This document shows, one piece after another, positions 1 through 11,283 of a stretch of DNA of 24,000 bases. Every line of letters starts with the position of its first letter. The first letter of the stretch is position 1. The notes under the pieces are model-generated. The model had not been told where the DNA came from. It worked only from the letters and a program-made list of their open reading frames with translations, and searched no databases. The stretch covers positions 105,919-129,918 of the forward strand of contig JBHOHG010000010.1 of assembly GCA_043422575.1 (NCBI GenBank), in the 5' to 3' direction. Both the position numbers and the translations under genes were made by a program. The DNA comes from a bacterium sp. HQB-39. GTDB lineage: Bacteria; Pseudomonadota; Gammaproteobacteria; Enterobacterales; Vibrionaceae.

Positions 1-1
1 T

Positions 2-1264
2 GATATGGATGCTTGGTACGTGTTGGACCCTGTGATTACGGTTCATCCTGACCAAGTGTTTTTTGAATGCTTTTCAGAAGATGAATCCAGCTACGGCAAA
101 TTAAGCTGCAACTACGACGCATTTGAAAAGATTAGCGATAAAGAGTATGGCACGACGAACATTGATTACTCTCAAGGGCTTTATGACGAGTTCCAGAAGA
201 TCCGAGATTATCGCCAGACCCAGCTTAAAGTGGATCCAGATGGTTTTAGTGTTCAGACGAGTGGTAGTGAAGCATTTGATGAGAAGAAAATCGACCTACC
301 TGAATCTTGGGTAAGAGGGTTTCTTCAGGTCAGTTCTGCCATGACCATGCCTATGGTCAAAATCACGTTACAACCTATGGATATTCATAATATCTGTACG
401 CACTTGAAGCAGAAAAAAGAGCGCGTAGGGCCTCGTTCAATGCGTTTTGAACTGACGCCAGATCAACCGATACGCATTGTGATGGAACCTTGGAATGATG
501 TGATTGTATGTCCACGATCGATCTATCGAGGAGAGAAGCAAAGAAGCATTCGAACTTGGGGACGTCGTCGTTTGTTAATACTTGAGCGATTATTGGCGGT
601 GACGGATAGCTTTGATGTCTGTTTACTCGGCGATGGGATGCCGTCGTTCTACTTAGCGAATATGGGCAATCTAACATTTACCCTAGGTTTATCAGGTTGG
701 AGCGCAAATGACTGGTCGGCGGCAGGGCAATTTGATTTACTTGCCCCGCGAGAGCCCGTCGATGAAGTCACCAGTCAACAAATTTATGTCGCACTACAGT
801 CTACTCAACAAGAGAGTGCACACAGCTTATCCATCCGATTGGGGCTTGAAGTCAGTGTAGTAAAGTCCGCGTTGGCGCAATACAGCCAGTTGGGACAAGT
901 GCTTTATGACATTGAACTCGATGTGTATCGCATCCGTCATCTCTACAAGGAGCCGATAGAATTAGACCAGATTCGTTTTGCGAACGAACGAGAGGAAAAA
1001 GCACAGCGTTTTGTCGATGCCAATTTAGTCACCATTACCAAACTTGAGCATTCTGATTTAGGTGCCGAGGTTTGTGGCTCGGTATTGGATGATGGAAAAG
1101 AATACATAGTGAAACTGAAATTGGACAGCGACCAACGTTTAATTGACGCTGAATGCCAATGTCATTTCTGGTTTACTAACAAGCTGAGACAGGGTCCATG
1201 TGAGCATATTTTGGCGTTGAGAATTTTCGCGCAAAGTAAAATGCAGCAGGAGGTGACAGCGTGA
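2..1264 (+). CDS. Winged-helix + SWIM zinc-finger protein, a candidate retron accessory gene. The reading frame is open to the window edge, so the true start may lie upstream.
   Basis: Long ORF with a first in-window ATG at 5. SWIM CxC...CxH signature CQCHFWFTNKLRQGPCEH at nt 1154-1207. It is preceded by a wHTH-like segment (SLSIRLGLEVSVVKSALAQYSQLGQVLYDIELDVYRIRHL). It lies directly upstream of the RT on the same strand. Confidence 0.8.
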   Translation, partial: DMDAWYVLDPVITVHPDQVFFECFSEDESSYGKLSCNYDAFEKISDKEYGTTNIDYSQGLYDEFQKIRDYRQTQLKVDPDGFSVQTSGSEAFDEKKIDLPESWVRGFLQVSSAMTMPMVKITLQPMDIHNICTHLKQKKERVGPRSMRFELTPDQPIRIVMEPWNDVIVCPRSIYRGEKQRSIRTWGRRRLLILERLLAVTDSFDVCLLGDGMPSFYLANMGNLTFTLGLSGWSANDWSAAGQFDLLAPREPVDEVTSQQIYVALQSTQQESAHSLSIRLGLEVSVVKSALAQYSQLGQVLYDIELDVYRIRHLYKEPIELDQIRFANEREEKAQRFVDANLVTITKLEHSDLGAEVCGSVLDDGKEYIVKLKLDSDQRLIDAECQCHFWFTNKLRQGPCEHILALRIFAQSKMQQEVTA

Positions 1265-1347
1265 TAGTTACCTGGCTCTCAAAAACATCATATGCAAGTG
1301 ATTTTGTACTTGCAGCACAGCCGTTTAACTTTAGAATGTTCGGTAAC

Positions 1348-1571
1348 AGTAGCGCGGCAGAAGAACCTTGCATCTCGAATGGTGGATCGCCATTCAGGTT
1401 TTATGACTGCCCACGCATCACTGATGCTATCTTTACTGAACCGTACGGTCACCTATGTCGCTATTGCGGTATGACTTCGATGAAGTCAATGAGCGACATA
1501 GGTAACGTACGGCATCGAGTTGATAACCTCAGTACCAAGAACTCTTCGAAGGAATATCTCGTCGCGCTACT
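1348..1571 (+). ncRNA. Candidate retron msr-msd non-coding RNA
   Basis: A 9-nt inverted repeat, AGTAGCGCG (1348-1356) and CGCGCTACT (1563-1571), brackets the region. A G follows immediately at 1357, in the position of a branching G. Two short hairpins lie at 1377-1395 and 1415-1427. A long nested hairpin at 1441-1512 has 7+12 bp arms plus an inner 7-bp hairpin at 1472-1488. The element sits about 100 nt upstream of the RT start, as in retrons. Boundaries are inferred. Confidence 0.45.
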
Positions 1572-1669
1572 TTCCTTCCTTTCGCACAAGGTGACTGCGT
1601 GTCACAAACATCTTCAACTCACCCTTCGACGTCACGTCTTACGTCCAGCCTCATTTGAGGAGCATTGCT

Positions 1670-3538
1670 ATGTCTGATTCCATTACGTCTAACTCCAACA
1701 CATCTAACTCCAACACACAAACGACGCGAGAGAATGATGAATCTCAGCCGAAACTTACTCGTCAACAAATCTATGACCGTGTTCGCCAAAGCAGTAAAGA
1801 TGAATACATACTGCAAGAAATGGTCAGGCTCGGCTTTTGGGAGCATGATGAAGAAAAGCCAACTTTAGCGCAGGAGTTTGTGCAACGTCGGAGCGAACTC
1901 AACAGTAAGATTCGTGAACTGAGCAAACTTGATGAGATATATTCTGATCCGGATAAAGCGCTTGAAGCGATGCGCAAGGAACGTAAAAAAGCGGCGCTGA
2001 TTAAGCGAGAAGAGACCAAACAAGCACGTAATCAATCACGCTATCAAAGAGCACTGCAGTGGTTCGAAAAACAGAAGTATCAAATTACGTGGTTAGGCGA
2101 GCATGTATCACAAGGACTGGGGAAGCAAGAGTGCGATGAAACCCGCCTAGATAGACAGCAAATTCCAGTGTTTCATAAAGCGGAACACTTGGCACAAGCA
2201 ATGGGCATAAGTGTGCCAGAATTGCGATTCTTAGCTTTTCAAAAAGAAGTGTCGAAAGTCTCTCATTATCAAAAATTCACCATCCCAAAGAAGACGGGAG
2301 CGCCACGATCTATTTCGGCGCCTATGCCTCGTTTAAAACGAGCTCAGTACTGGATTTTAGAGAACATATTGAATGAAGTGACCATTCATGGTGCCGCTCA
2401 TGGCTTCGTGCCAAAGAGAAACATCGTCACGAATGCGGAGCTTCATGTAGGTAAAGAAGTTGTGATCAACATGGATCTTAAAGACTTCTTTCCGAGCATA
2501 AGCTATCGCCGAGTGAAAGGGGTTTTCCGTGGTTTTGGCTACAGCGAAGAAATTGCGACCATACTCGGATTGTTGACGACGGAACAAGACACGCAGAAGG
2601 TCGAGATGGACGGGGATACTTGGCATGTTGCCACAGGAGAGCGTCGATTACCTCAAGGAGCACCATCCAGCCCTGCGATAACGAATGTGTTATGTAATCG
2701 TCTTGATTCTAGATTACAAGGCATGGTGAACAGTCTCGGCTTTGAGTACACTCGCTATGCGGATGATCTTACTTTCTCAGGAAACGACCCTAAAAAGGTT
2801 CAAGCGCTGTTATGGCGAGTCAAGCAAATCGTCGCTGACGAAGGGTTTACTCTCCACCCTGATAAAACCAGAGTGATGCGTCGACATCAGAAGCAGGAGG
2901 TGACTGGCGTCGTCGTTAATGACAAGATCTCGATTGATCGTAAAACCTTGAAGCGATTCCGAGCGACGTTACATCAGATTGAGAAAGATGGTCCAGAAGG
3001 AAAGGTGTGGGGAGCTGGTGAACTGTTCCAGTCTCTGCAGGGGTATGCTCAGTTTGTTTCAATGGTAAATACCGTTAAAGGTGTGCCATTAGAGAAAAAG
3101 GTAATCGATCTCAAGCGTAAATATGGCATATCGACCAAGCCGGGGCGCATCACCGAGTTAAATAAGCGATTATTCCGAGAAAAGGCGGCGCAAGGGGAGG
3201 CGCCAAGAGGTGACTGGTGGCAACCTGAAGAGAAATCAGCTCCCGAGCTAGAGTTGACCGCGCAGCAAAAAGCGGAACAGAAAAAGCGTGAAAAACACAA
3301 TGCTCGATACAGCGAAACACCGACCAGCGATGAATCAAGCAGTGAAGTGCAGACAGAAACGGTGGTCGACGCCGAATCACAAGATTCAACCAAAGAGGAT
3401 AAAGAGGAAGTCGGACCGTTTATATATATTCTGGCTATCGTGTTCTCTCCGTTAATTCTCTTTCTTTTCCTTTTATACCGTTTTCCTACAGCGACGATCT
3501 TAATGCTGATTCTAGGATTTATCATTTTTGGCGATTAA
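1670..3538 (+). CDS. Retron-type reverse transcriptase with an approximately 190-aa N-terminal charged extension and a C-terminal acidic linker plus two hydrophobic helices
   Basis: ATG at 1670 with GAGGAG 8 nt upstream; the ORF-track TTG start at 1655 is less likely. Motifs: NAELH (NAxxH) at 2432-2446, MDLKDFFPSI, RYADDLTFS (YADD at 2756-2767), and QEVTGVVVN (VTG at 2900-2908). The C-terminus FIYILAIVFSPLILFLFLLYRFPTATILMLILGFIIFGD is strongly hydrophobic. Confidence 0.9.
   Translation: MSDSITSNSNTSNSNTQTTRENDESQPKLTRQQIYDRVRQSSKDEYILQEMVRLGFWEHDEEKPTLAQEFVQRRSELNSKIRELSKLDEIYSDPDKALEAMRKERKKAALIKREETKQARNQSRYQRALQWFEKQKYQITWLGEHVSQGLGKQECDETRLDRQQIPVFHKAEHLAQAMGISVPELRFLAFQKEVSKVSHYQKFTIPKKTGAPRSISAPMPRLKRAQYWILENILNEVTIHGAAHGFVPKRNIVTNAELHVGKEVVINMDLKDFFPSISYRRVKGVFRGFGYSEEIATILGLLTTEQDTQKVEMDGDTWHVATGERRLPQGAPSSPAITNVLCNRLDSRLQGMVNSLGFEYTRYADDLTFSGNDPKKVQALLWRVKQIVADEGFTLHPDKTRVMRRHQKQEVTGVVVNDKISIDRKTLKRFRATLHQIEKDGPEGKVWGAGELFQSLQGYAQFVSMVNTVKGVPLEKKVIDLKRKYGISTKPGRITELNKRLFREKAAQGEAPRGDWWQPEEKSAPELELTAQQKAEQKKREKHNARYSETPTSDESSSEVQTETVVDAESQDSTKEDKEEVGPFIYILAIVFSPLILFLFLLYRFPTATILMLILGFIIFGD
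1688..1717 (+). repeat. Perfect 15-nt tandem duplication TCTAACTCCAACACA x2, encoding SNSNT x2 in the RT N-terminus
   Basis: Read directly: 1688-1702 is identical to 1703-1717. Confidence 0.95.
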
Positions 3539-4498: not shown

Positions 4499-4527
4499 CT
4501 TCTACTAGTGATAAATAGAGTAAGAGT

Positions 4528-4558
4528 AAGCCCAAGAGATGATTCCCTTGGGCTTTTT
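4528..4558. terminator. Rho-independent terminator, probably bidirectional, between convergent small genes
   Basis: AAGCCCAAG (4528-4536) pairs with CTTGGGCTT (4547-4555), followed by a T-run on the + strand. Confidence 0.75.
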
Positions 4559-4572
4559 GGTTTGTCAGATAC

Positions 4573-4899
4573 CTAGTAGCAAGGCCCACCACCATCACTG
4601 CAAGATGATGAGTCCATAGTTCCGTTAGAGTGATGATAATTACCACCAATACCATTTGAGTAGCAGCAGTTTTTAGCAAGGATTTCTCTATCTGGCGTAT
4701 TAGGAACCTGAATGTCAGCCTCGTCAGATGTTGGGCCTTCGAGATCCATTTTATTTAGGTTGCTAATAAATAATGCTAATAAAACAATTGAAAAAATGGC
4801 TGAAATTATGGTGTATAAGTTCAATCCAAATGTTGAATAAATTTGTATGGTAATGAGAAAGACTATAAATTTGGCACATAAAATCAAAGGTGCAATCAT
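4573..4899 (-). CDS. Small membrane protein: two N-terminal TM helices plus a Cys/Gly/Ser-rich tail (108 aa)
   Basis: RBS AAGGATG upstream of the ATG. Hydrophobic segments at roughly aa 3-20 and 27-46. The tail ends ...NCCYSNGIGGNYHHSNGTMDSSSCSDGGGPCY. No family recognised. Confidence 0.65.
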   Translation of the reverse strand: MIAPLILCAKFIVFLITIQIYSTFGLNLYTIISAIFSIVLLALFISNLNKMDLEGPTSDEADIQVPNTPDREILAKNCCYSNGIGGNYHHSNGTMDSSSCSDGGGPCY

Positions 4900-5107
4900 A
4901 TGTCATCCTTTTCTATGAATGAGTAACTTTTATAGCTTAAAAGGTGGATGTTTACTTTTCATTATTGCTCTAATTCGGTACTAGTCTCACATATTGTGAA
5001 AATGAAAATGATATAAAAGTAATTAAATCGAGGGGAGATTGGAAAGTAAAGTAATGTTTATGCCTATGATTTTAAGATCCAAACATTAATAATTACGACT
5101 TCATTCT

Positions 5108-5374
5108 CTAATCACCACCATCGCCTCCACCACCACTGTCGCTATCGCCAAATCCATTTTCATCGTCGCTATAATAAGTATGGAATGACTTTACTGATAA
5201 GAGCAAGTCTCGGACCTCTTTCGGGATGACAAAAAAATAGATCATGAGTAAGTTAATAGCGAGCGTTATGAGTCCGTAAAACTCTGAATTTTCTGATGAA
5301 AAGAAGCGAGTGGTTAAACCGAGGGAGAAAGTAAAAATCGTCACAAATAGAAAGACTTTCATATCTTGATCCAT
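5108..5374 (-). CDS. Small membrane protein: two TM helices plus an acidic Gly-rich tail (88 aa)
   Basis: Same architecture as the 4573-4899 ORF. The tail ends ...YYSDDENGFGDSDSGGGGDGGD. The RBS is weak, and an alternative start exists at the MKVF methionine (5362). Confidence 0.55.
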   Translation of the reverse strand: MDQDMKVFLFVTIFTFSLGLTTRFFSSENSEFYGLITLAINLLMIYFFVIPKEVRDLLLSVKSFHTYYSDDENGFGDSDSGGGGDGGD

Positions 5375-5576
5375 GATTCAATATACGTAACGCCGTTGAG
5401 GGTGTTTGCTTATGGCGTTAAAAACTGCGTTTCTAATACCATAACCATTGAGATTAACCGTTTGTGACCGTGAGTTTTAGCGATTGTTTTATGTTTCTCA
5501 CCATTTACTAAAACCTCACAGCTACAATTAATAGCAGCTACAGAATTTTAATTGTGAGACAAAGGTACTAAGTTTG

Positions 5577-5866: not shown

Positions 5867-7471
5867 TTATTTTACTTGCGGAACATCACTCCATTTCAAT
5901 CCAAATTTGGTCAGGTACTTTTGCAAGCGGCTGGTGTCATTGTGAGCGGACTTTTGTGTCCGAGAATACTGGAATAATTCGCGACCTGTTGCGGCCATGG
6001 AGTCATGTTGACTGGCGACATTCAGTACATAATTGAGCTGGTGGGCATCAAAATTATCTAACTGATCTAGCTGTTCATCATCGAAAACCGACTTTAAATG
6101 CTCCATTGAGTGTGTGCTTGGCTCATCACACTGCCAAGAAGCCTTTAAGCGAAGGATCTCTTGGTCTACATCCTGTAAAGTAATCCTAGAAGAGTCGGCA
6201 AGGGTACACATACGAGTGATCGCTGAACTTAAATCGCGAAAGTTTCCTGTCCAGAGTGCTGATGGGGATGAGGAAAAAGTAAGGAAACGCTGTTTTGCTT
6301 CCTTATTAAATTGAATTCGTCGTTCAGTTTTCTGTGTGTATTGATCAAGTTCAAAATCGATGTTGGCCGGAATATCTTCTTTTCGTTCTTTTAACGCTGG
6401 TAATTTATATGTCCATAAATTAATTCTGGCTAACAGATCGCCTCTGAAGTTACCCAATTGAACTTCGCGTTTTAAATCTCGGTTGGTTCCTGCGATCAAC
6501 TGAAAGTCACTGCTGACAGCGGTATCGCTTCCGACTGGATGGAAGGATTTACTTTCAATTGCGTGCAGTAACATCGCTTGTTCTTCTAGTCCTAGTTCAC
6601 CAATCTCATCTAAAAACAGTACACCCTGATTGGCAGTCAGTAAAAAGCCATCTCTCGACTTCAATGCCCCTGTGAACGCGCCTTTGGTGTGCCCGAAGAG
6701 CGCAGCCATTGCATTTTCCCCTTTCAAAGTGGCGCAGTTGACAGACACCAAGCTTCCCGAGACCATGCTGCGCTTTTTTTTGAGCTGGTAGATCCGAGTT
6801 GCTAGCTGGCTTTTACCGGCACCGGTTGGGCCGGTCAGTAGCATAGGGTCACGAGAGCGGATCGCGACCTTTTCTAATTGGGTGATCAGTTGGTTGAAAT
6901 GACGATTTTTGGTCGCGATGCCATTTTTAAGAAAAGTGGTGCCCTCTGAGTGTTCCTTGTCAAATCGTGTTGCAAGCTGATCATATTTTGATAAATCGAG
7001 ATCGATGATCTGAACGGTGCCGATTGAGCGGTTTTCTTGATGGCTATCGGGCGATGTTTGAATTAACCGCCCTGGAAAATGGCGACTTTCAGTCAATAGA
7101 TAAGCGCAGATCTGTACCACGTGTGTCCCGGTTGTAATGTGAAACAAGTAATCATTCTGCTCGGTATCGAAATGTTGCTGCTTACACCAATCAAATAATT
7201 TGGCATACACCTCCTCAAAATCCCATGGATTGTCAAAGTCAATGGGGTGACGAACCACTTCGGTTTCAGGGGATATTGTTTCGATATCGACAGCAATGTT
7301 ATGGGCGAGTCGCCCCGATGGATGACCATGGAGCAAATGCATGGTATCAATTTGCAAGTCTTCTTGACTGCACAAGCCAACATTAGGTCGCCATCTATCC
7401 CAACGCTTTTTCCCTCGCCCGACACGATCCAGTTGTGTTCCCAGTAAACTCACGACAATCGTTGATTTCAT
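5867..7471 (-). CDS. rtcR: RtcR, a sigma54-dependent transcriptional activator with an N-terminal CARF-type sensor domain
   Basis: The N-terminus MKSTIVVSLLGTQLDRVGRGKKRWDRWRPNVGLC resembles E. coli RtcR. AAA+ Walker A LLTGPTGAGKSQLA and the GAFTGA motif (TKGAFTGAL) are present. The gene is divergent from rtcBA. Confidence 0.93.
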   Translation of the reverse strand: MKSTIVVSLLGTQLDRVGRGKKRWDRWRPNVGLCSQEDLQIDTMHLLHGHPSGRLAHNIAVDIETISPETEVVRHPIDFDNPWDFEEVYAKLFDWCKQQHFDTEQNDYLFHITTGTHVVQICAYLLTESRHFPGRLIQTSPDSHQENRSIGTVQIIDLDLSKYDQLATRFDKEHSEGTTFLKNGIATKNRHFNQLITQLEKVAIRSRDPMLLTGPTGAGKSQLATRIYQLKKKRSMVSGSLVSVNCATLKGENAMAALFGHTKGAFTGALKSRDGFLLTANQGVLFLDEIGELGLEEQAMLLHAIESKSFHPVGSDTAVSSDFQLIAGTNRDLKREVQLGNFRGDLLARINLWTYKLPALKERKEDIPANIDFELDQYTQKTERRIQFNKEAKQRFLTFSSSPSALWTGNFRDLSSAITRMCTLADSSRITLQDVDQEILRLKASWQCDEPSTHSMEHLKSVFDDEQLDQLDNFDAHQLNYVLNVASQHDSMAATGRELFQYSRTQKSAHNDTSRLQKYLTKFGLKWSDVPQVK

Positions 7472-7620
7472 GTTGTATCCATATAGATAGTTTGACTATC
7501 CATATGTATATCTTTTTATGAATTGAAAATAAACCATCCAGATAAATAAAATGATTAAAATTTAATTTAAGTGTTAAATATCAATTGTTTATGCTTTGTT
7601 TTGGTGTTGTTTTTTATAAC

Positions 7621-7636
7621 TGGCACAAGGATTGTA
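7621..7636 (+). promoter_or_regulatory. Candidate sigma54 (-24/-12) promoter of the rtcBA operon
   Basis: TGGCAC-AAGGA-TTGT matches TGGCAC-N5-TTGC, except that the -12 element is GT rather than GC. It is correctly oriented and placed between rtcR and rtcB. Confidence 0.55.
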
Positions 7637-7774
7637 ATAGAGGAAGGGTCAAGTGATGTTAGCGGTGATTCTGAATGTCACGTTGGTGCACTGAGCTATG
7701 CAGATGTGTATGCCTTCACTTGTCACGCCAATCCATAGAGGGAAGGAAACTTCAAGGGTGCAAATCCCTAATTT

Positions 7775-7845
7775 GGCACCGAAACTCAATGGTAGAGCAC
7801 TGAAAATCAACTTCAGTTGTTGTGGGTTCGAATCCCACCAAAAAA
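7775..7845 (+). ncRNA. tRNA-like element in the rtcBA leader (D-arm, anticodon-like arm and T-arm, but no acceptor stem); possibly a Y-RNA/YrlA-like module
   Basis: D-arm-like CTCAATGGTAGAG at 7785-7797. Hairpin CTGAA-AATCAAC-TTCAG at 7800-7816. Canonical T-arm GTGGG-TTCGAAT-CCCAC at 7822-7838. The flanking 7-mers GGCACCG and CAAAAAA cannot pair. A second T-arm-like hairpin, AGGG-TGCAAAT-CCCT, lies at 7755-7769. Confidence 0.5.
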
Positions 7846-7967
7846 CATGGATAAATGAAAAACAAAGGTTATATAGCGAGCCAAGCCAAGGTTCAATAAA
7901 CCTCAACCCTGAACAGTAATCAGCGAGCAGTAAAAGTGAATCGCTGAAAAGTTAACGATGGCTAGGG

Positions 7968-8013
7968 GTGTCGTGAGAGGAACAATAATGATCAACTCAA
8001 CCTCTCACGACAC
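7968..8013 (+). promoter_or_regulatory. Perfect 13-bp stem / 20-nt loop hairpin immediately upstream of the rtcB RBS
   Basis: GTGTCGTGAGAGG (7968-7980) pairs with CCTCTCACGACAC (8001-8013). There is no T-run, and the rtcB RBS AAGGAAAG follows about 10 nt later. Confidence 0.6.
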
Positions 8014-8033
8014 GCCAATTTAAGGAAAGAAAG

Positions 8034-9257
8034 ATGTGTCAGAAATTTAATTTAATTGAAAACCCAGGCAACACACCGATCAAAGCATGGACGCAAGGTG
8101 TGCCATTTGAAAACAAAGCACAAGAGCAGGTGAAAAACATCGCCAAGATGCCATTTATTCACTCACACGTCGCTATTATGCCCGATGTTCATTTAGGTAA
8201 AGGAGCCACAATCGGCAGTGTGATCCCATCGGTCAATGCGGTGATCCCAGCCGCTGTCGGGGTAGATATAGGTTGTGGTATGGTCGCGACCAAAACCTCA
8301 TTAAGTGCGAGTCAGTTGCCAGATAATTTATCCGCCATCCGTTCCGCGTTTGAAGCCGCTATTCCACATGGGCGTAGCAGCTCTAGAGCCAAAGTCGATC
8401 GTGGTTCATGGGGAAACATCCCTGAATTGGTCGCGGGTGAATGGCAAAAGCTAGAACAGCGTTTCAAGCGTATTTGCGAGAAACACCCCGCGATTGCCAA
8501 GTCAAATCATGTTGTCCATTTAGGTACTATGGGTACGGGTAATCACTTCTTGGAGCTCTGTCTGGATGAGAATGATGCTGTCTGGATCATGCTGCATTCA
8601 GGGAGTCGTGGTGTCGGTAACCGGATTGGGACCTATTTTATTTCGTTGGCAAGAAAAGAGATGGAGCGTCATCAACGTCAGTTGCCAGACCTTGATCTTG
8701 CCTACCTTGAAGAGGGCAGCGACTACTTTGACGACTACGTAGAGGCAGTAGAGTGGGCACAAGATTTTGCCGCGAAAAACCGTGAAATCATGATGTTTAA
8801 TGCGATTAAGGCTCTGCGTGAACAAATGCCTGTAGAGTTCACAACCATGGATGTCGCTGTGAACTGCCATCACAACTATATCTCCCGAGAAAAGCATTTT
8901 GGAAAAGAGTGCTACGTGACTCGAAAAGGTGCCGTGAGAGCTGAGAAAGGGGAACTCGGGATCATTCCGGGTAGCATGGGAGCGCGTTCCTTTATTGTTC
9001 GAGGCTTAGGCAATCCTGAAAGCTTCAACAGTTGCAGTCACGGTGCTGGTCGAGTTATGTCACGAACACAGGCGAAGAAAGTGTTTAACGTGAAAGATCA
9101 AGAAGCAGCGACGCAAGGGGTTGAGTGTCGAAAAGACCAAGGGGTTATTGACGAGATCCCCCATGCCTATAAAGACATTGAAAAAGTCATGGAGGCTCAA
9201 AGTGATTTGGTCGAAGTGGTGCACACCCTAAAGCAAGTGGTCTGTGTGAAAGGCTAG
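8034..9257 (+). CDS. rtcB: RNA-splicing ligase RtcB (3'-phosphate/5'-hydroxyl RNA ligase)
   Basis: RtcB hallmarks are present: IMPDVHLGKG, VGVDIGCGM, GTGNHFLE, HSGSRGVGN, NCHHNY, GSMG and SCSHGAGR. A good RBS precedes the start. Confidence 0.95.
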   Translation: MCQKFNLIENPGNTPIKAWTQGVPFENKAQEQVKNIAKMPFIHSHVAIMPDVHLGKGATIGSVIPSVNAVIPAAVGVDIGCGMVATKTSLSASQLPDNLSAIRSAFEAAIPHGRSSSRAKVDRGSWGNIPELVAGEWQKLEQRFKRICEKHPAIAKSNHVVHLGTMGTGNHFLELCLDENDAVWIMLHSGSRGVGNRIGTYFISLARKEMERHQRQLPDLDLAYLEEGSDYFDDYVEAVEWAQDFAAKNREIMMFNAIKALREQMPVEFTTMDVAVNCHHNYISREKHFGKECYVTRKGAVRAEKGELGIIPGSMGARSFIVRGLGNPESFNSCSHGAGRVMSRTQAKKVFNVKDQEAATQGVECRKDQGVIDEIPHAYKDIEKVMEAQSDLVEVVHTLKQVVCVKG

Positions 9258-9317
9258 GTTCCGTAAGCCGAGCCGGCTCTTAAAACGGCACTCTGAAGTT
9301 AATAAGAAAGGGAAAAT

Positions 9318-10487
9318 ATGATCACCATAGATGGCTCATTGGGAGAAGGTGGAGGGCAGATCCTTAGGACGTCGTTGACTCTGGCGATGCTGACCCAACA
9401 GTCGATAGAAATCGTTAATATTCGAGCTGGGCGTAAAAAGCCCGGTTTACTTCGCCAACATTTAACTTGTGTATTAGCAGCTCAGGCGATTTGCCAAGCC
9501 GAAGTACAAGGCGCGGAACTGGGTTCGCAGCATGTGGTGTTTCGTCCTCAAGCGGTAAGAGCGGGAGAATATCGTTTTGCCATCTCGGGCGCTGGCAGTA
9601 CCGCTTTGGTTTGCCAAACCGTGTTTCCGGCACTGGCGGTGGCTGAGGGGGAGTCGATGGTGACCTTCATCGGGGGGACACATAATGGTTTATCACCCTC
9701 TGTGGATTTCTTGCAAAAATCGTATTTCCCGATTTGGCATGAAATGGGTGTCGTGACGGCAATGACGATGCAAAAAATTGGCTTTAATCCGGCTGGAGGA
9801 GGGGAGTGGCAACTTAGGATCACACCAGCACAGACGCTAAAGGCTTTCAATTATACAGAGCGAAAGGCTTTTGATTACACAGAACAAAAGGCTTTCGAAC
9901 TCACGGGGAAAAAGGAGTGTGATCTCGGAGCTTTACAGCTCAAAACAGGCCCTACTCTATGGCAAGACAAAGTTCAAATTAATGTATTAATCAGCGGTAT
10001 TGAGCACAAAGTGGCGCAAAGAGAGGTCGCTGAGGCGATACGATATTGTCGCCTTGATGCGCACACCATTAATAACAACGTGGTAATTAAAGGGGTCAAC
10101 AGTGCGTGCGCAGGCAATAGCTTCCAAATGAGTTACTTACTCGACCACAACCATGCCGTATTCGAAATGGTCGGTGAAGTACGTGTATCTGCTGAAAAAG
10201 TGGCGCGAAGAGCGGCTGGGCGATTTAACAAGTGGGTAAACAGCGGAGCGGCAGTGGAAGAGTACTTGGCGGATCAACTCTTGATTCCGATGTGGATGGC
10301 AGGAGAAGGGCGTTTTTCCACCACCCAACCTAGCCTTCATTGCCAAACGAATATGCAAGTGATTAAAGCCATTACTGGCTGCGAGTTTTATGTCACGCCA
10401 ATCGGAGTGGATAAGCAACAGTGGTTGGTAAGAATTAAGGGAGAGAAGGGTGAAGCAAGCAGTCATAAACCCAAGAGTGATACCTGA
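9318..10487 (+). CDS. rtcA: RNA 3'-terminal phosphate cyclase RtcA, with an internal repeat-containing insertion
   Basis: The N-terminus IDGSLGEGGGQILRTSLTLAML is typical of RtcA. The protein is 389 aa, compared with about 338 aa for E. coli RtcA from memory. It lies downstream of rtcB. Confidence 0.93.
   Translation: MITIDGSLGEGGGQILRTSLTLAMLTQQSIEIVNIRAGRKKPGLLRQHLTCVLAAQAICQAEVQGAELGSQHVVFRPQAVRAGEYRFAISGAGSTALVCQTVFPALAVAEGESMVTFIGGTHNGLSPSVDFLQKSYFPIWHEMGVVTAMTMQKIGFNPAGGGEWQLRITPAQTLKAFNYTERKAFDYTEQKAFELTGKKECDLGALQLKTGPTLWQDKVQINVLISGIEHKVAQREVAEAIRYCRLDAHTINNNVVIKGVNSACAGNSFQMSYLLDHNHAVFEMVGEVRVSAEKVARRAAGRFNKWVNSGAAVEEYLADQLLIPMWMAGEGRFSTTQPSLHCQTNMQVIKAITGCEFYVTPIGVDKQQWLVRIKGEKGEASSHKPKSDT
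9840..9911 (+). repeat. In-frame 24-nt tandem repeat x3 inside rtcA (KAFNYTER / KAFDYTEQ / KAFELTGK)
   Basis: Units at 9840-9863, 9864-9887 and 9888-9911, read directly. The units are imperfect copies. Confidence 0.9.
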
Positions 10488-11283
10488 TTCAGTCAGATCA
10501 GAAATTTTACGACGTATTTCTGCCGCTGAACAAGAACATAATGTGAAGGTACTGTTTGCGATCGAATCCGGCAGCCGAGCGTGGGGATTTGAAAGCGCTA
10601 ACAGTGATTTCGATGTGCGTTTCGTCTATATCCATGAAAAAGACTGGTATCTCACTATTGATGTCGAAGAAAAACGTGATGTGATTGAATATCCGATCAC
10701 AGATGAAATCGACATCAATGGCTGGGAATTACGTAAGGCATTAAAATTATTTCGAAAATCGAACCCAGCCATCCTTGAGTGGATTCAATCACCGATTGTG
10801 TATCGCGATGATGGCTTGACGATGACAAGCTTGAGAGACCTCATTAGCTTAGTGGCTGATCCGCGAAAGGCGGGGTATCATTATTTTCATATGGCCCGCA
10901 ACAATTTTCGAGAATACCTGAAAAAAGAACAGGTACCACTGAAGAAATATTTTTATGTGTTGCGCCCTTTATTAGCCATTCGGTGGTTAGAAGCCCATCA
11001 ATCGCAGCCTCCGATTGAATTCGACACCTTATGCGAACTCATCGTTGATCAAGTTGATTTAAAAGATGCCATCGATGAGCTGTTGGTACGTAAGCGTGCA
11101 GCAACAGAAAAAGAAATGATATACAGCGTGCCTGTGATCAATGACTTTATTGCTTCTGAGTTAGCGCGTAACGGCGACAGTGATGATTTGCAGTTCATAA
11201 AATTACTCATGAAACGCGCACAACACGATCACACGCCGCGACTCAATCACGTCTTTCAACAATGCTTGGAAAACGAAATTTGA
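10450..11283 (+). CDS. Pol-beta-superfamily nucleotidyltransferase (RlaP-like, RNA-ligase-associated)
   Basis: Motif ESGSRAWGFESANSDFDVRFVY, i.e. the GS...D.D minimal NTase signature. GTG start at 10450 follows GGAGAGAAGG and overlaps the rtcA 3' end by 38 nt. From memory this matches the PF10127-type family linked to RtcB. Confidence 0.85.
   Translation: MKQAVINPRVIPDSVRSEILRRISAAEQEHNVKVLFAIESGSRAWGFESANSDFDVRFVYIHEKDWYLTIDVEEKRDVIEYPITDEIDINGWELRKALKLFRKSNPAILEWIQSPIVYRDDGLTMTSLRDLISLVADPRKAGYHYFHMARNNFREYLKKEQVPLKKYFYVLRPLLAIRWLEAHQSQPPIEFDTLCELIVDQVDLKDAIDELLVRKRAATEKEMIYSVPVINDFIASELARNGDSDDLQFIKLLMKRAQHDHTPRLNHVFQQCLENEI

What the first reader, a model, noticed from the sequence alone, without database searches (positions are those of the whole stretch)
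1..3538. Retron-like three-part module: WH-SWIM protein, structured ncRNA, and an oversized membrane-anchored RT
What the sequence shows:
- An ORF ends in a winged-helix-like segment plus a SWIM zinc finger (CQCH...CEH, nt 1154-1207).
- About 400 nt of hairpin-rich sequence with no convincing coding signal follows.
- Next comes a 622-aa RT carrying NAxxH (NAELH, 2432-2446), YADD (2756-2767) and VTG (2900-2908). Established knowledge treats this trio as diagnostic for retron RTs rather than group II intron, DGR or Abi RTs.

What is unusual:
- The RT is about twice the size of a minimal retron RT.
- It has an approximately 190-aa Lys/Glu/Arg-rich N-terminal extension that looks coiled-coil.
- A C-terminal acidic linker leads into two hydrophobic helices, so the polymerase itself would be membrane-tethered.

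From memory, the 2020 retron classification by Mestre and colleagues includes a rare type (XIII) whose accessory genes are an ARM-repeat protein and a WH-SWIM protein. This locus may belong there, in which case the missing partner lies just upstream of the window. I cannot verify that. I know of no experimentally characterised member, msDNA or phage-defence phenotype for such a system.
Basis: partly seen in the sequence, partly recalled or inferred. Interest (0 to 1): 0.85.

Follow-up and report, generated by a model that had tools for sequence, protein, structure and literature searches.

The report
Canonical type XIII retron operon
This is a complete, standard member of a common bacterial retron family (type XIII) that makes a small branched RNA-DNA molecule; the family's cellular role is still unknown, and two features seen here (a sliding-clamp-like fold in the partner protein, a membrane anchor on the polymerase) may help to work it out.

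Summary
The module is a type XIII retron. PADLOC models match all three proteins: RT_XIII (E 2e-193), SWIM_XIII (E 2.8e-231) and, just upstream of the window, WGR_XIII (E 1.5e-237). The order WGR/HEAT, SWIM, gap, RT recurs in 76 of 80 related loci.

The gap holds a roughly 230-nt structured RNA (window 1346-1573, + strand). 59 of its 74 base pairs show compensatory changes. It aligns with type XIII ncRNAs whose reverse-transcribed DNA has been sequenced. That mapping predicts branching G1370, template 1547 to 1406, and a 142-nt msDNA.

- The type is not rare.
- It includes the founding retrons Mx162, Mx65, Sa163 and Ne144, plus recently tested RT-DNA producers.
- The RT's size is normal for the family.

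Two points may be new:
- The predicted SWIM protein structure has a PCNA-like clamp fold, not a transposase or nuclease fold.
- The C-terminal membrane helices are conserved across the close RT subfamily.

I found no published defence phenotype or mechanism for type XIII. Verdict: a new member of a known kind, of modest interest.

The parts
2..1264 (+). 3' 420 codons of the SWIM_XIII accessory gene. The full protein is 551 aa; its start lies 392 nt upstream of the window.
   Evidence: PADLOC SWIM_XIII E 3.9e-189 for the window part and 2.8e-231 for the full length. A 100%-identical full protein is P0121.
26..703 (+). Predicted PCNA-like two-domain clamp fold (aa about 140-365). It carries the invariant acidic residues D140, D148, E153, D186 and E225, which form Mestre's 'DEDE' motif.
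   Evidence: AF2 model with pLDDT mostly 76-96 in this region. Foldseek against PDB gave 475 hits at E<=1e-3; every one of the 50 best listed is a PCNA, 9-1-1 or viral sliding clamp, with target-normalised TM up to 0.71. Motif and invariance.
764..943 (+). Winged-helix segment of the SWIM protein (aa 386-445).
   Evidence: AF2 secondary structure shows three helices plus a beta hairpin. Mestre et al. report a DprA-like WH at this position.
1154..1207 (+). SWIM zinc-finger motif CxCx12CxH.
   Evidence: Regex match at exactly these coordinates. Pfam SWIM hit below threshold, 16.4 bits. C516, C518, C531 and H533 are invariant in 40 homologues.
1310..1337 (+). Promoter-like TTGCAG-16 nt-TAGAAT. 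It ends 8 nt before the ncRNA closing stem.
   Evidence: Read from the sequence. TTGnnn-16/18-TAnAAT sits at the same place in about 9 of 12 Vibrionaceae loci (alignment). The consensus scan did not flag it because the -35 matches only 3 of 6. Inferred, weak.
1346..1573 (+). Retron ncRNA (msr-msd). Closing stem 1346-1358/1561-1573; inner stem 1366-1369/1549-1552; msr hairpin 1377-1395; long msd hairpin 1420-1533.
   Evidence: Sharp conserved block. RNAalifold gives 74 pairs. The covariance model hits the + strand between SWIM and RT in every related locus with enough upstream sequence, at 75-279 bits against at most 55 on the - strand; the three weak Aureispira L081 copies score 48-53 bits. 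92.2% of cells are paired against 35-42% in slid controls, and 59 of 74 pairs have compensatory changes.
1370..1370 (+). Predicted branching guanosine (2'-OH primer) in the conserved CCUUG*CA motif.
   Evidence: Inferred by aligning the window ncRNA with three type XIII ncRNAs whose RT-DNA 5' ends were sequenced. The stem-G geometry is the same as in Ec86, which I recall from my own knowledge.
1406..1547 (+). Predicted msd template. It is read 1547 to 1406 and gives a 142-nt msDNA with a long hairpin.
   Evidence: Homologous start and stop columns of the sequenced RT-DNAs of Mestre-1710, -1703 and -1687. Predicted msDNA sequence and fold. Inferred for this locus.
1670..3538 (+). Retron RT, 622 aa. 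N-terminal extension nt 1670-2140 (aa 1-157); RT core nt 2141-3130 (aa 158-487); helical C-terminal region nt 3131-3325; acidic disordered linker nt 3326-3409.
   Evidence: PADLOC RT_XIII E 2e-193, 642 bits, against 341 bits for the next model. Pfam RVT_1. PDB sequence hits are all retron RTs. The AF2 model matches Ec86 RT best, target-normalised TM 0.78-0.80.
3416..3529 (+). Two C-terminal hydrophobic helices of the RT (aa 583-602 and 606-620); a predicted membrane anchor.
   Evidence: Kyte-Doolittle windows of 2.1-2.9. AF2 helices. A hydrophobic C-terminal helix passes the hydropathy threshold in about 85% of the 120 closest homologues despite no sequence conservation. It is absent from the short type XIII RTs of 468-486 aa.

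Best explanation
The region is the 3' three-quarters of a four-part type XIII retron operon. The order is a WGR + HEAT/ARM protein (upstream of the window), a clamp-like/WH/SWIM protein, the msr-msd ncRNA, and the RT.

Shown, or shown in close homologues:
- The ncRNA folds with a 13-bp closing stem.
- In homologues, the RT alone with the ncRNA makes abundant reverse-transcribed DNA.

Inferred for this locus:
- Transcription starts at a promoter about 10 nt upstream of the closing stem and reads through the ncRNA into the RT gene.
- The RT uses the 2'-OH of G1370 as primer. It copies 1547 to 1406 into a 142-nt hairpin msDNA that stays attached to the msr RNA.

Inferred by analogy with characterised retrons, not shown for type XIII:
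- The RT-msDNA complex holds the two accessory proteins in an inactive state until phage infection disturbs the msDNA. A growth-arresting activity is then released.

Specific to this subfamily, and also inferred:
- The RT's C-terminal helices tether the complex to the inner membrane.
- The SWIM protein binds the msDNA duplex through a PCNA-like domain plus its WH and SWIM modules.
- The WGR domain of the HEAT protein reads a DNA end or junction.
For: - Identity: full-length PADLOC matches to RT_XIII, SWIM_XIII and WGR_XIII. The CxCx12CxH and DEDE motifs are as Mestre et al. describe them.
- Synteny: 76 of 80 loci keep the gene order.
- ncRNA: covariation is strong and strand-specific.
- RT-DNA production in homologues: clades 2, 9 and 10 gave the greatest RT-DNA production in E. 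coli from RT plus ncRNA alone. Sequenced RT-DNAs of 139-151 nt come from ncRNAs that align with this one.
- RT fold: closest to retron RTs.
- Membrane helices: conserved in the subfamily.
- Clamp-like fold of the SWIM protein.
- ncRNA primary sequence: 77-92% identical across Vibrionaceae genera, while the RT and SWIM genes are only 58-68% identical at nucleotide level. This fits sequence-specific protein recognition of the msDNA or ncRNA.
Against: - I found no phage-defence phenotype, toxicity or effector activity reported for any type XIII retron.
- Mestre et al. note a moderate correlation with 16S (0.78) and suggest vertical inheritance and possibly a non-defence role.
- Relatives that carry the N-terminal extension were found only on chromosomes, megaplasmids or chromids, not in phages.
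- No recognisable toxin or nuclease domain was found.
- The clamp fold rests on one AF2 model (mean pLDDT 75) and one search program. There is no sequence-level similarity to PCNA.
- The branching G and the msDNA ends are mapped by homology, not measured for this locus.
Confidence: 0.85

Rival explanations
1. It is a type XIII retron that makes msDNA, but it serves a vertically inherited housekeeping or DNA-metabolism role rather than phage defence. One possibility is a clamp-like, WGR-containing complex acting on DNA ends at the membrane.
For: - Mestre et al. report a 16S correlation of 0.78 and suggest domestication.
- Relatives are chromosomal or on megaplasmids, and absent from phages.
- PCNA-like and WGR modules are typical of replication and repair proteins (plus my own knowledge of WGR in PARPs).
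- No defence data exist.
Against: - Flanking genes differ in every related locus. NUDIX, the 396-aa gene and GNAT are never conserved. That pattern fits an island-like accessory element.
- No match in any of the 5,426 complete E. coli genomes, while Citrobacter, Yokenella and Phytobacter carry it. That indicates patchy distribution.
- Every retron type whose function has been tested so far acts in defence (abstracts).
Confidence: 0.3
2. The SWIM protein is a DEDE-type, transposase-derived nuclease and is the effector. This is the proposal of Mestre et al.
For: The Dx7Dx4Ex32Dx38E pattern is present, and all five acidic residues are invariant in 40 homologues. Mestre et al. group type XIII with the nuclease-associated retrons.
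Against: The predicted structure of that region matches sliding clamps only (475 hits at E<=1e-3, and every listed top hit is a clamp) and not RNase H-like or DDE transposase folds. There are no Pfam, PDB-sequence or NCBIfam hits to transposases or nucleases.
Confidence: 0.2
3. The 1261-1677 stretch encodes the 138-aa protein that gene callers annotate there, rather than an RNA.
For: A gene is called there in the public assembly (L001 6958-7374). The same frame stays open across the conserved block in the first 21 listed homologues, which are nearly all gammaproteobacterial.
Against: - 15 of 74 homologues have stops in all three frames.
- Block lengths differ by non-multiples of three.
- Variable columns show no codon-position bias, 22/24/27, p = 0.71.
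- The sequence upstream of the block, including the start codon, is not conserved.
- 59 of 74 base pairs covary.
- Homologous sequences are experimentally reverse-transcribed.
Confidence: 0.02

Closest known systems
Type XIII retrons of Mestre et al. 2020 (RT clade 10; includes Retron-Nex2/Ne144, Mxa1/Mx162, Mxa2/Mx65 and Sau1/Sa163)
   Same: The RT profile matches. The SWIM accessory protein has CxCx12CxH and the DEDE motif. A WGR + HEAT/ARM gene comes first. The ncRNA sits directly upstream of the RT. The RT has an N-terminal extension.
   Different: The ncRNA belongs to a different subclass from the myxobacterial Sa163 ncRNA, with no shared motifs visible. The RT carries an extra linker plus membrane helices of about 70 aa that the 468-486-aa type XIII RTs lack.
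Mestre-1710 (Comamonadaceae), Mestre-1703 (Comamonas serinivorans), Mestre-1687 (Tenacibaculum) and Mestre-1718 (Hahella chejuensis), tested by Khan et al. 2024
   Same: The ncRNAs align along their whole length, including CTTGCA, GGTGxxTCGCC, CACTG, TCGAGTxxA and TTCGAAGG. The RT-DNAs are 139-151 nt, and their start and stop columns map onto window 1547 and 1406.
   Different: These are different hosts. Only RT plus ncRNA were tested there, in E. coli. The accessory genes and phage defence were not addressed.
Retron Ec86/Eco1 (type II-A), the best-understood retron
   Same: The RT core fold matches (target-normalised TM 0.78-0.80, 32% identity). The stem-then-G priming geometry is the same. 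NAxxH, YADD and VTG are present.
   Different: Ec86 RT is 320 aa, with no N-terminal helical hairpin and no membrane helices. Its effector is an N-glycosidase filament partner, not WGR-HEAT plus a clamp-like SWIM protein. Its msDNA is 86 nt against a predicted 142 nt here.
PCNA and 9-1-1 sliding clamps
   Same: Predicted two-domain clamp fold over about 245 aligned positions, rmsd 3.2-4.5 A.
   Different: No detectable sequence similarity. The domain is embedded in a 551-aa protein with an N-terminal coiled coil and a C-terminal WH + SWIM. Ring formation is unknown.

Membership tests
Type XIII retron (Mestre et al. 2020) | RT belongs to clade 10 / the RT_XIII profile | tested here: met
   PADLOC RT_XIII E 2e-193, 641.7 bits, profile 5-462 of 469. 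The next model scores 340.8 bits. No explicit tree with the Mestre set was built.
Type XIII retron (Mestre et al. 2020) | [quoted passage not shown] | tested here: met
   SWIM_XIII E 2.8e-231. Both motifs were found. The WH appears in the AF2 model.
Type XIII retron (Mestre et al. 2020) | A preceding WGR-like + HEAT/ARM repeat protein (cluster 216_1), present in many but not all members | tested here: met
   The 1073-aa gene upstream in L001 matches WGR_XIII at E 1.5e-237, profile 1-971 of 973. It lies outside the window.
Retron (general) | RT motifs NAxxH, YADD and VTG | tested here: met
   NAELH at aa 255, YADD at aa 363, VTG at aa 411. All three are in invariant columns of 33 homologues.
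Retron (general) | Adjacent structured ncRNA with terminal inverted repeats that enclose msr hairpins and an msd hairpin | tested here: met
   A 13-bp closing stem in which all 13 pairs covary, and an msd stem in which 20 of 21 pairs covary. It is found in every related locus with enough upstream sequence.
Retron (general) | Produces msDNA branched by a 2'-5' bond at a conserved G | not testable with these tools
   Homologous ncRNA/RT pairs give sequenced RT-DNA. G1370 and the 142-nt product are homology-based predictions.
Anti-phage defence system | Protects against phage when expressed | not testable with these tools
   I found no report for type XIII. Defence tools list it by classification only.
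Sliding-clamp (PCNA-like) fold | Two topologically repeated beta-alpha-beta-beta-beta domains that superpose on PCNA | tested here: met
Sliding-clamp (PCNA-like) fold | Sequence homology to PCNA or DnaN families | tested here: not met
   hhalign probability 1.7%. No Pfam or PDB sequence hit. It is therefore not filed as a PCNA family member.
Sliding-clamp (PCNA-like) fold | Closed ring oligomer that encircles duplex DNA | not testable with these tools
   No multimer prediction or experiment was available.

The most novel reading that the evidence does not exclude
In type XIII retrons the 'SWIM' accessory protein is a sliding-clamp-like ring, not a nuclease. It would load onto the long msDNA hairpin. 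The WGR-HEAT partner would read the branched 5' junction. In this proteobacterial subfamily the RT's conserved C-terminal helices would hold the whole particle at the inner membrane. That would be a sensing or effector architecture unlike any characterised retron.
Probability: 0.2. Interest if true: 0.7.

Novelty: new member of a known kind. Interest (0 to 1): 0.33.

Why it matters
As a locus it adds little. Standard defence-annotation tools already label it, and hundreds of species carry close relatives.

Its value is as a clean, compact example of the largest retron type that still lacks a known function. The analysis gives concrete handles for experiments:
- exact ncRNA boundaries;
- a predicted priming G and a 142-nt msDNA;
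- a clamp-like fold that argues against the published nuclease guess;
- a conserved membrane anchor on the polymerase.

Type XIII includes Mx162, which I recall as the first retron discovered. Explaining what these accessory proteins do would close a question open since the 1980s.

Tried and rejected
- Rfam at gathering thresholds found nothing in 1-3538.
- Pfam and NCBIfam gave no domain for the SWIM protein beyond a sub-threshold SWIM hit, and only a weak HEAT_2 hit for the upstream protein.
- The coding hypothesis for the 138-aa ORF over the ncRNA was tested and rejected.
- The minus-strand RNA was considered because the minus strand also folds well (z = -4.7). It was rejected because the covariance model scores 75-279 bits on the + strand against at most 55 on the - strand, and because sequenced RT-DNAs fix the template strand.
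- Group II intron, DGR, Abi and DRT readings were rejected on HMM ranking and fold ranking.
- Sequence-level tests of the PCNA link were negative.
The Sa163 ncRNA from the census supplement looks like a different subclass.
The nearest relatives are Vibrio nigripulchritudo and V. penaeicida.
- No E. coli complete genome carries the ncRNA.
- The consensus promoter scan did not flag the promoter I propose.
Full report
**Observation**

All features are at the stated coordinates.
- The ORF ending at 1264 carries CQCHFWFTNKLRQGPCEH at nt 1154-1207.
- A 405-nt gap follows.
- The RT starts at ATG 1670, with GAGGAG 7 nt upstream. It is 622 aa, with NAELH at 2432-2446, YADD at 2756-2767 and VTG at 2900-2908.
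- Hydropathy analysis and an AlphaFold2 model (pLDDT 83) agree on the RT's C-terminus. A disordered acidic linker (aa 553-580) leads into two hydrophobic helices, aa 583-602 and 606-620.
- The N-terminal extension relative to Ec86 RT is about 157 aa. It consists of a disordered Ser/Asn/Thr-rich start, a small conserved helical motif (aa 31-57) and a long helical hairpin (aa 65-137).

**Identity**

PADLOC profiles give near full-length matches.
- The RT matches RT_XIII at E 2e-193 (642 bits). The next model scores 341 bits.
- The window part of the first ORF matches SWIM_XIII at E 3.9e-189, covering profile positions 96-504 of 509. About 130 N-terminal residues are therefore cut off by the window edge.

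An exact look-up found the same sequence on a 9.85-kb public contig, L001. Window position equals L001 position minus 5697.
- Upstream of the window lies a 1073-aa gene whose stop overlaps the SWIM start (ATGA).
- That gene matches WGR_XIII at E 1.5e-237 over the whole profile. The complete 551-aa SWIM protein matches SWIM_XIII at E 2.8e-231.
- The SWIM protein also carries the Dx7Dx4Ex32Dx38E pattern that Mestre et al. describe for their cluster 114_1. All five acidic residues are invariant in 40 homologues.

**Comparative evidence**

A scan of one genome per GTDB species found at least 553 relatives of the RT. Eighty loci were kept. They come from Vibrio, Enterovibrio, Photobacterium, several Enterobacteriaceae, Massilia, Variovorax, Methylobacterium, Desulfosarcina and Bacteroidota MAGs.
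- tblastn shows the order HEAT, SWIM, gap of 300-700 nt, RT, all on one strand, in 76 loci.
- Three of the other four loci have too little upstream sequence to tell. The fourth (Aureispira, L081) has 1.1 kb upstream and shows no HEAT or SWIM match anywhere in its 10.5 kb.
- The NUDIX gene, the 396-aa gene and the downstream GNAT gene are never conserved next to it (one locus, L046, has a short unrelated NUDIX match). The unit is therefore HEAT to RT, inserted in varying contexts.

**The ncRNA**

Aligning the gap from 12 Vibrionaceae loci reveals a sharply bounded block, window 1343-1577. The block is 77-92% identical in nucleotides, while its flanks cannot be aligned. The RT and SWIM genes of the same loci are only 58-68% identical at nucleotide level.
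- RNAalifold predicts 74 pairs: a 13-bp closing stem (1346-1358 with 1561-1573), a short inner stem (1366-1369 with 1549-1552), an msr hairpin (1377-1395) and a long msd hairpin (1420-1533).
- A covariance model built from 11 sequences hits the + strand between SWIM and RT in every related locus that has the sequence. Scores are 75-279 bits (48-53 for the three weak Aureispira copies), against at most 55 bits on the minus strand.
- On 74 sequences, 92.2% of cells are paired, against 35-42% when partners are slid. 59 of 74 pairs show compensatory changes, and no shuffle out of 500 reaches the observed values. The alignment was fitted to the model, which favours the structure, but the margin is very large.
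- Gene callers annotate a 138-aa ORF over this stretch. It is not coding. 15 of 74 homologues have stops in all frames, block lengths differ by non-multiples of three, and there is no codon-position bias.

**Link to experiments**

Mestre et al. list Mx162, Mx65, Sa163 and Ne144 as type XIII. The type therefore includes some of the earliest characterised msDNAs.

Khan et al. tested 17 type XIII retrons.
- They report clades 2, 9 and 10 as the highest RT-DNA producers in E. coli from RT plus ncRNA alone.
- Their supplement gives ncRNA and sequenced RT-DNA for Mestre-1710 (139 nt), Mestre-1703 (151 nt) and Mestre-1687 (142 nt). It also gives the ncRNA of Hahella chejuensis.
- All of these align with the window block along its length.
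- In all three, the RT-DNA starts at the base just 5' of the G that precedes the inner stem's 3' strand. All three end at the same alignment column, within 1 nt.

Transferred to the window, this gives the following predictions:
- Branching G at 1370, in the conserved CCUUG*CA motif.
- Template read from 1547 to 1406.
- A 142-nt msDNA that folds into a long hairpin.

These are homology-based predictions, not measurements.

**The 'unusual' RT features**
- Size: all but one of the 120 closest homologues are 559-735 aa; the exception is a 450-aa sequence from a 1.6-kb contig.
- Membrane helices: about 85% of them end in one or two hydrophobic helices after a low-complexity linker, although the helices are not conserved in sequence.
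- N-terminal extension: a search of 50%-identity representatives shows it is shared by type XIII RTs generally. This includes forms of 468-486 aa that stop right after the RT core.
- C-terminal tail: the linker plus membrane helices is confined to the closer subfamily. Several other relatives instead end in a Trp-Trp motif.

So the size is not an oddity of this locus. The conserved membrane anchor is, however, a real subfamily trait. The retron papers I could search do not mention it.

**The SWIM protein**

I built an AlphaFold2 model from 40 homologues (pLDDT 75 overall, 76-96 across aa 140-365) and searched it against PDB with Foldseek.
- The search returned 475 hits at E<=1e-3. Every one of the 50 best listed is a PCNA, 9-1-1 or viral sliding clamp. 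Target-normalised TM reaches 0.71, with rmsd 3.2-4.5 A over about 245 columns.
- The secondary-structure order matches two repeated clamp domains.
- No RNase H-like or DDE transposase structure appears among the listed matches. This speaks against the published suggestion of a transposase-derived nuclease.
- There is no sequence similarity to PCNA.
- A second fold-comparison method could not be run. I therefore treat the clamp-like fold as likely but unconfirmed.
- I found no paper linking retrons to clamp folds.

**Mechanism**
- Solid: the locus is a type XIII retron, and its ncRNA is a template for msDNA synthesis by the adjacent RT.
- Inferred: the promoter at 1310-1337, the priming G and the msDNA ends.
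- Analogy only: that the msDNA-RT complex restrains the accessory proteins until phage infection.

I found no defence phenotype for type XIII. Mestre et al. raise vertical inheritance and possible domestication. Relatives with the N-terminal extension occur on chromosomes and megaplasmids, not in phages. Against a pure housekeeping role, the flanking genes vary from locus to locus and the distribution is patchy.

**Verdict**

The locus is an ordinary member of an abundant, already catalogued retron type, and annotation tools already label such loci. Interest is modest. It rests on the unknown function of the type and on two structural leads: the clamp-like accessory protein and the membrane-anchored RT.

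Noticed in passing
window 5867-11283: An RNA-repair cluster lies 2.3 kb downstream of the retron: rtcR on the minus strand (CARF + sigma-54 activator, NCBIfam 773 bits), then rtcB, rtcA and an RlaP-family gene. A tRNA-like element at 7781-7839 (Rfam tRNA, 30.5 bits; not called by ARAGORN) sits between rtcR and rtcB. From memory, this recalls the tRNA-like Y-RNA modules of Salmonella rsr-yrlBA-rtcBA operons.
   Followed up: partly
L067 7229-7460 and 7720-7953; L071 7380-7613 and 7631-7848; L081 132-912: Some related loci carry two tandem copies of the ncRNA upstream of the RT. The Aureispira locus has three weaker copies. Multiple msr-msd copies per RT are unusual.
   Followed up: no
window 1343-1577 against the genes at 2-1264 and 1670-3538: The ncRNA primary sequence is far better conserved across Vibrionaceae genera (77-92% nt) than the protein genes beside it (58-68% nt). 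This includes long unpaired stretches that never vary. The selection acts on sequence as well as structure.
   Followed up: partly
window 1261-1677 (L001 6958-7374): Public gene calls place a 138-aa protein over the ncRNA. The frame stays open in the first 21 listed homologues (nearly all gammaproteobacterial), but the stretch shows no coding signature. This is probably a recurrent mis-annotation.
   Followed up: yes
RT aa 516-517 (window 3215-3220) and the C-termini of P0254, P0266, P0268 and P0270: A Trp-Trp motif is invariant in the aligned homologues. In several relatives that lack membrane helices, the protein ends at a WWxF/W motif. It may be a short amphipathic or interaction element that predates the membrane tail.
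   Followed up: no
window 4500-5500: A low-GC stretch (35-36%, against about 45% elsewhere) holds two small, very hydrophobic minus-strand ORFs (4573-4899 and 5108-5374). It lies between the GNAT gene and rtcR and may be an island remnant.
   Followed up: no
window 1685-1715: The RT gene begins with a 15-nt direct repeat (TCTAACTCCAACACA twice) that encodes SNSNT-SNSNT. It falls in the disordered, non-conserved first 25 residues.
   Followed up: no
literature: A 2026 preprint says the type XIII ncRNA has not been identified. Mestre's Table 1 lists type XIII ncRNA structure classes, and Khan et al. give sequenced RT-DNAs for the type. The statement appears to be an error.
   Followed up: yes
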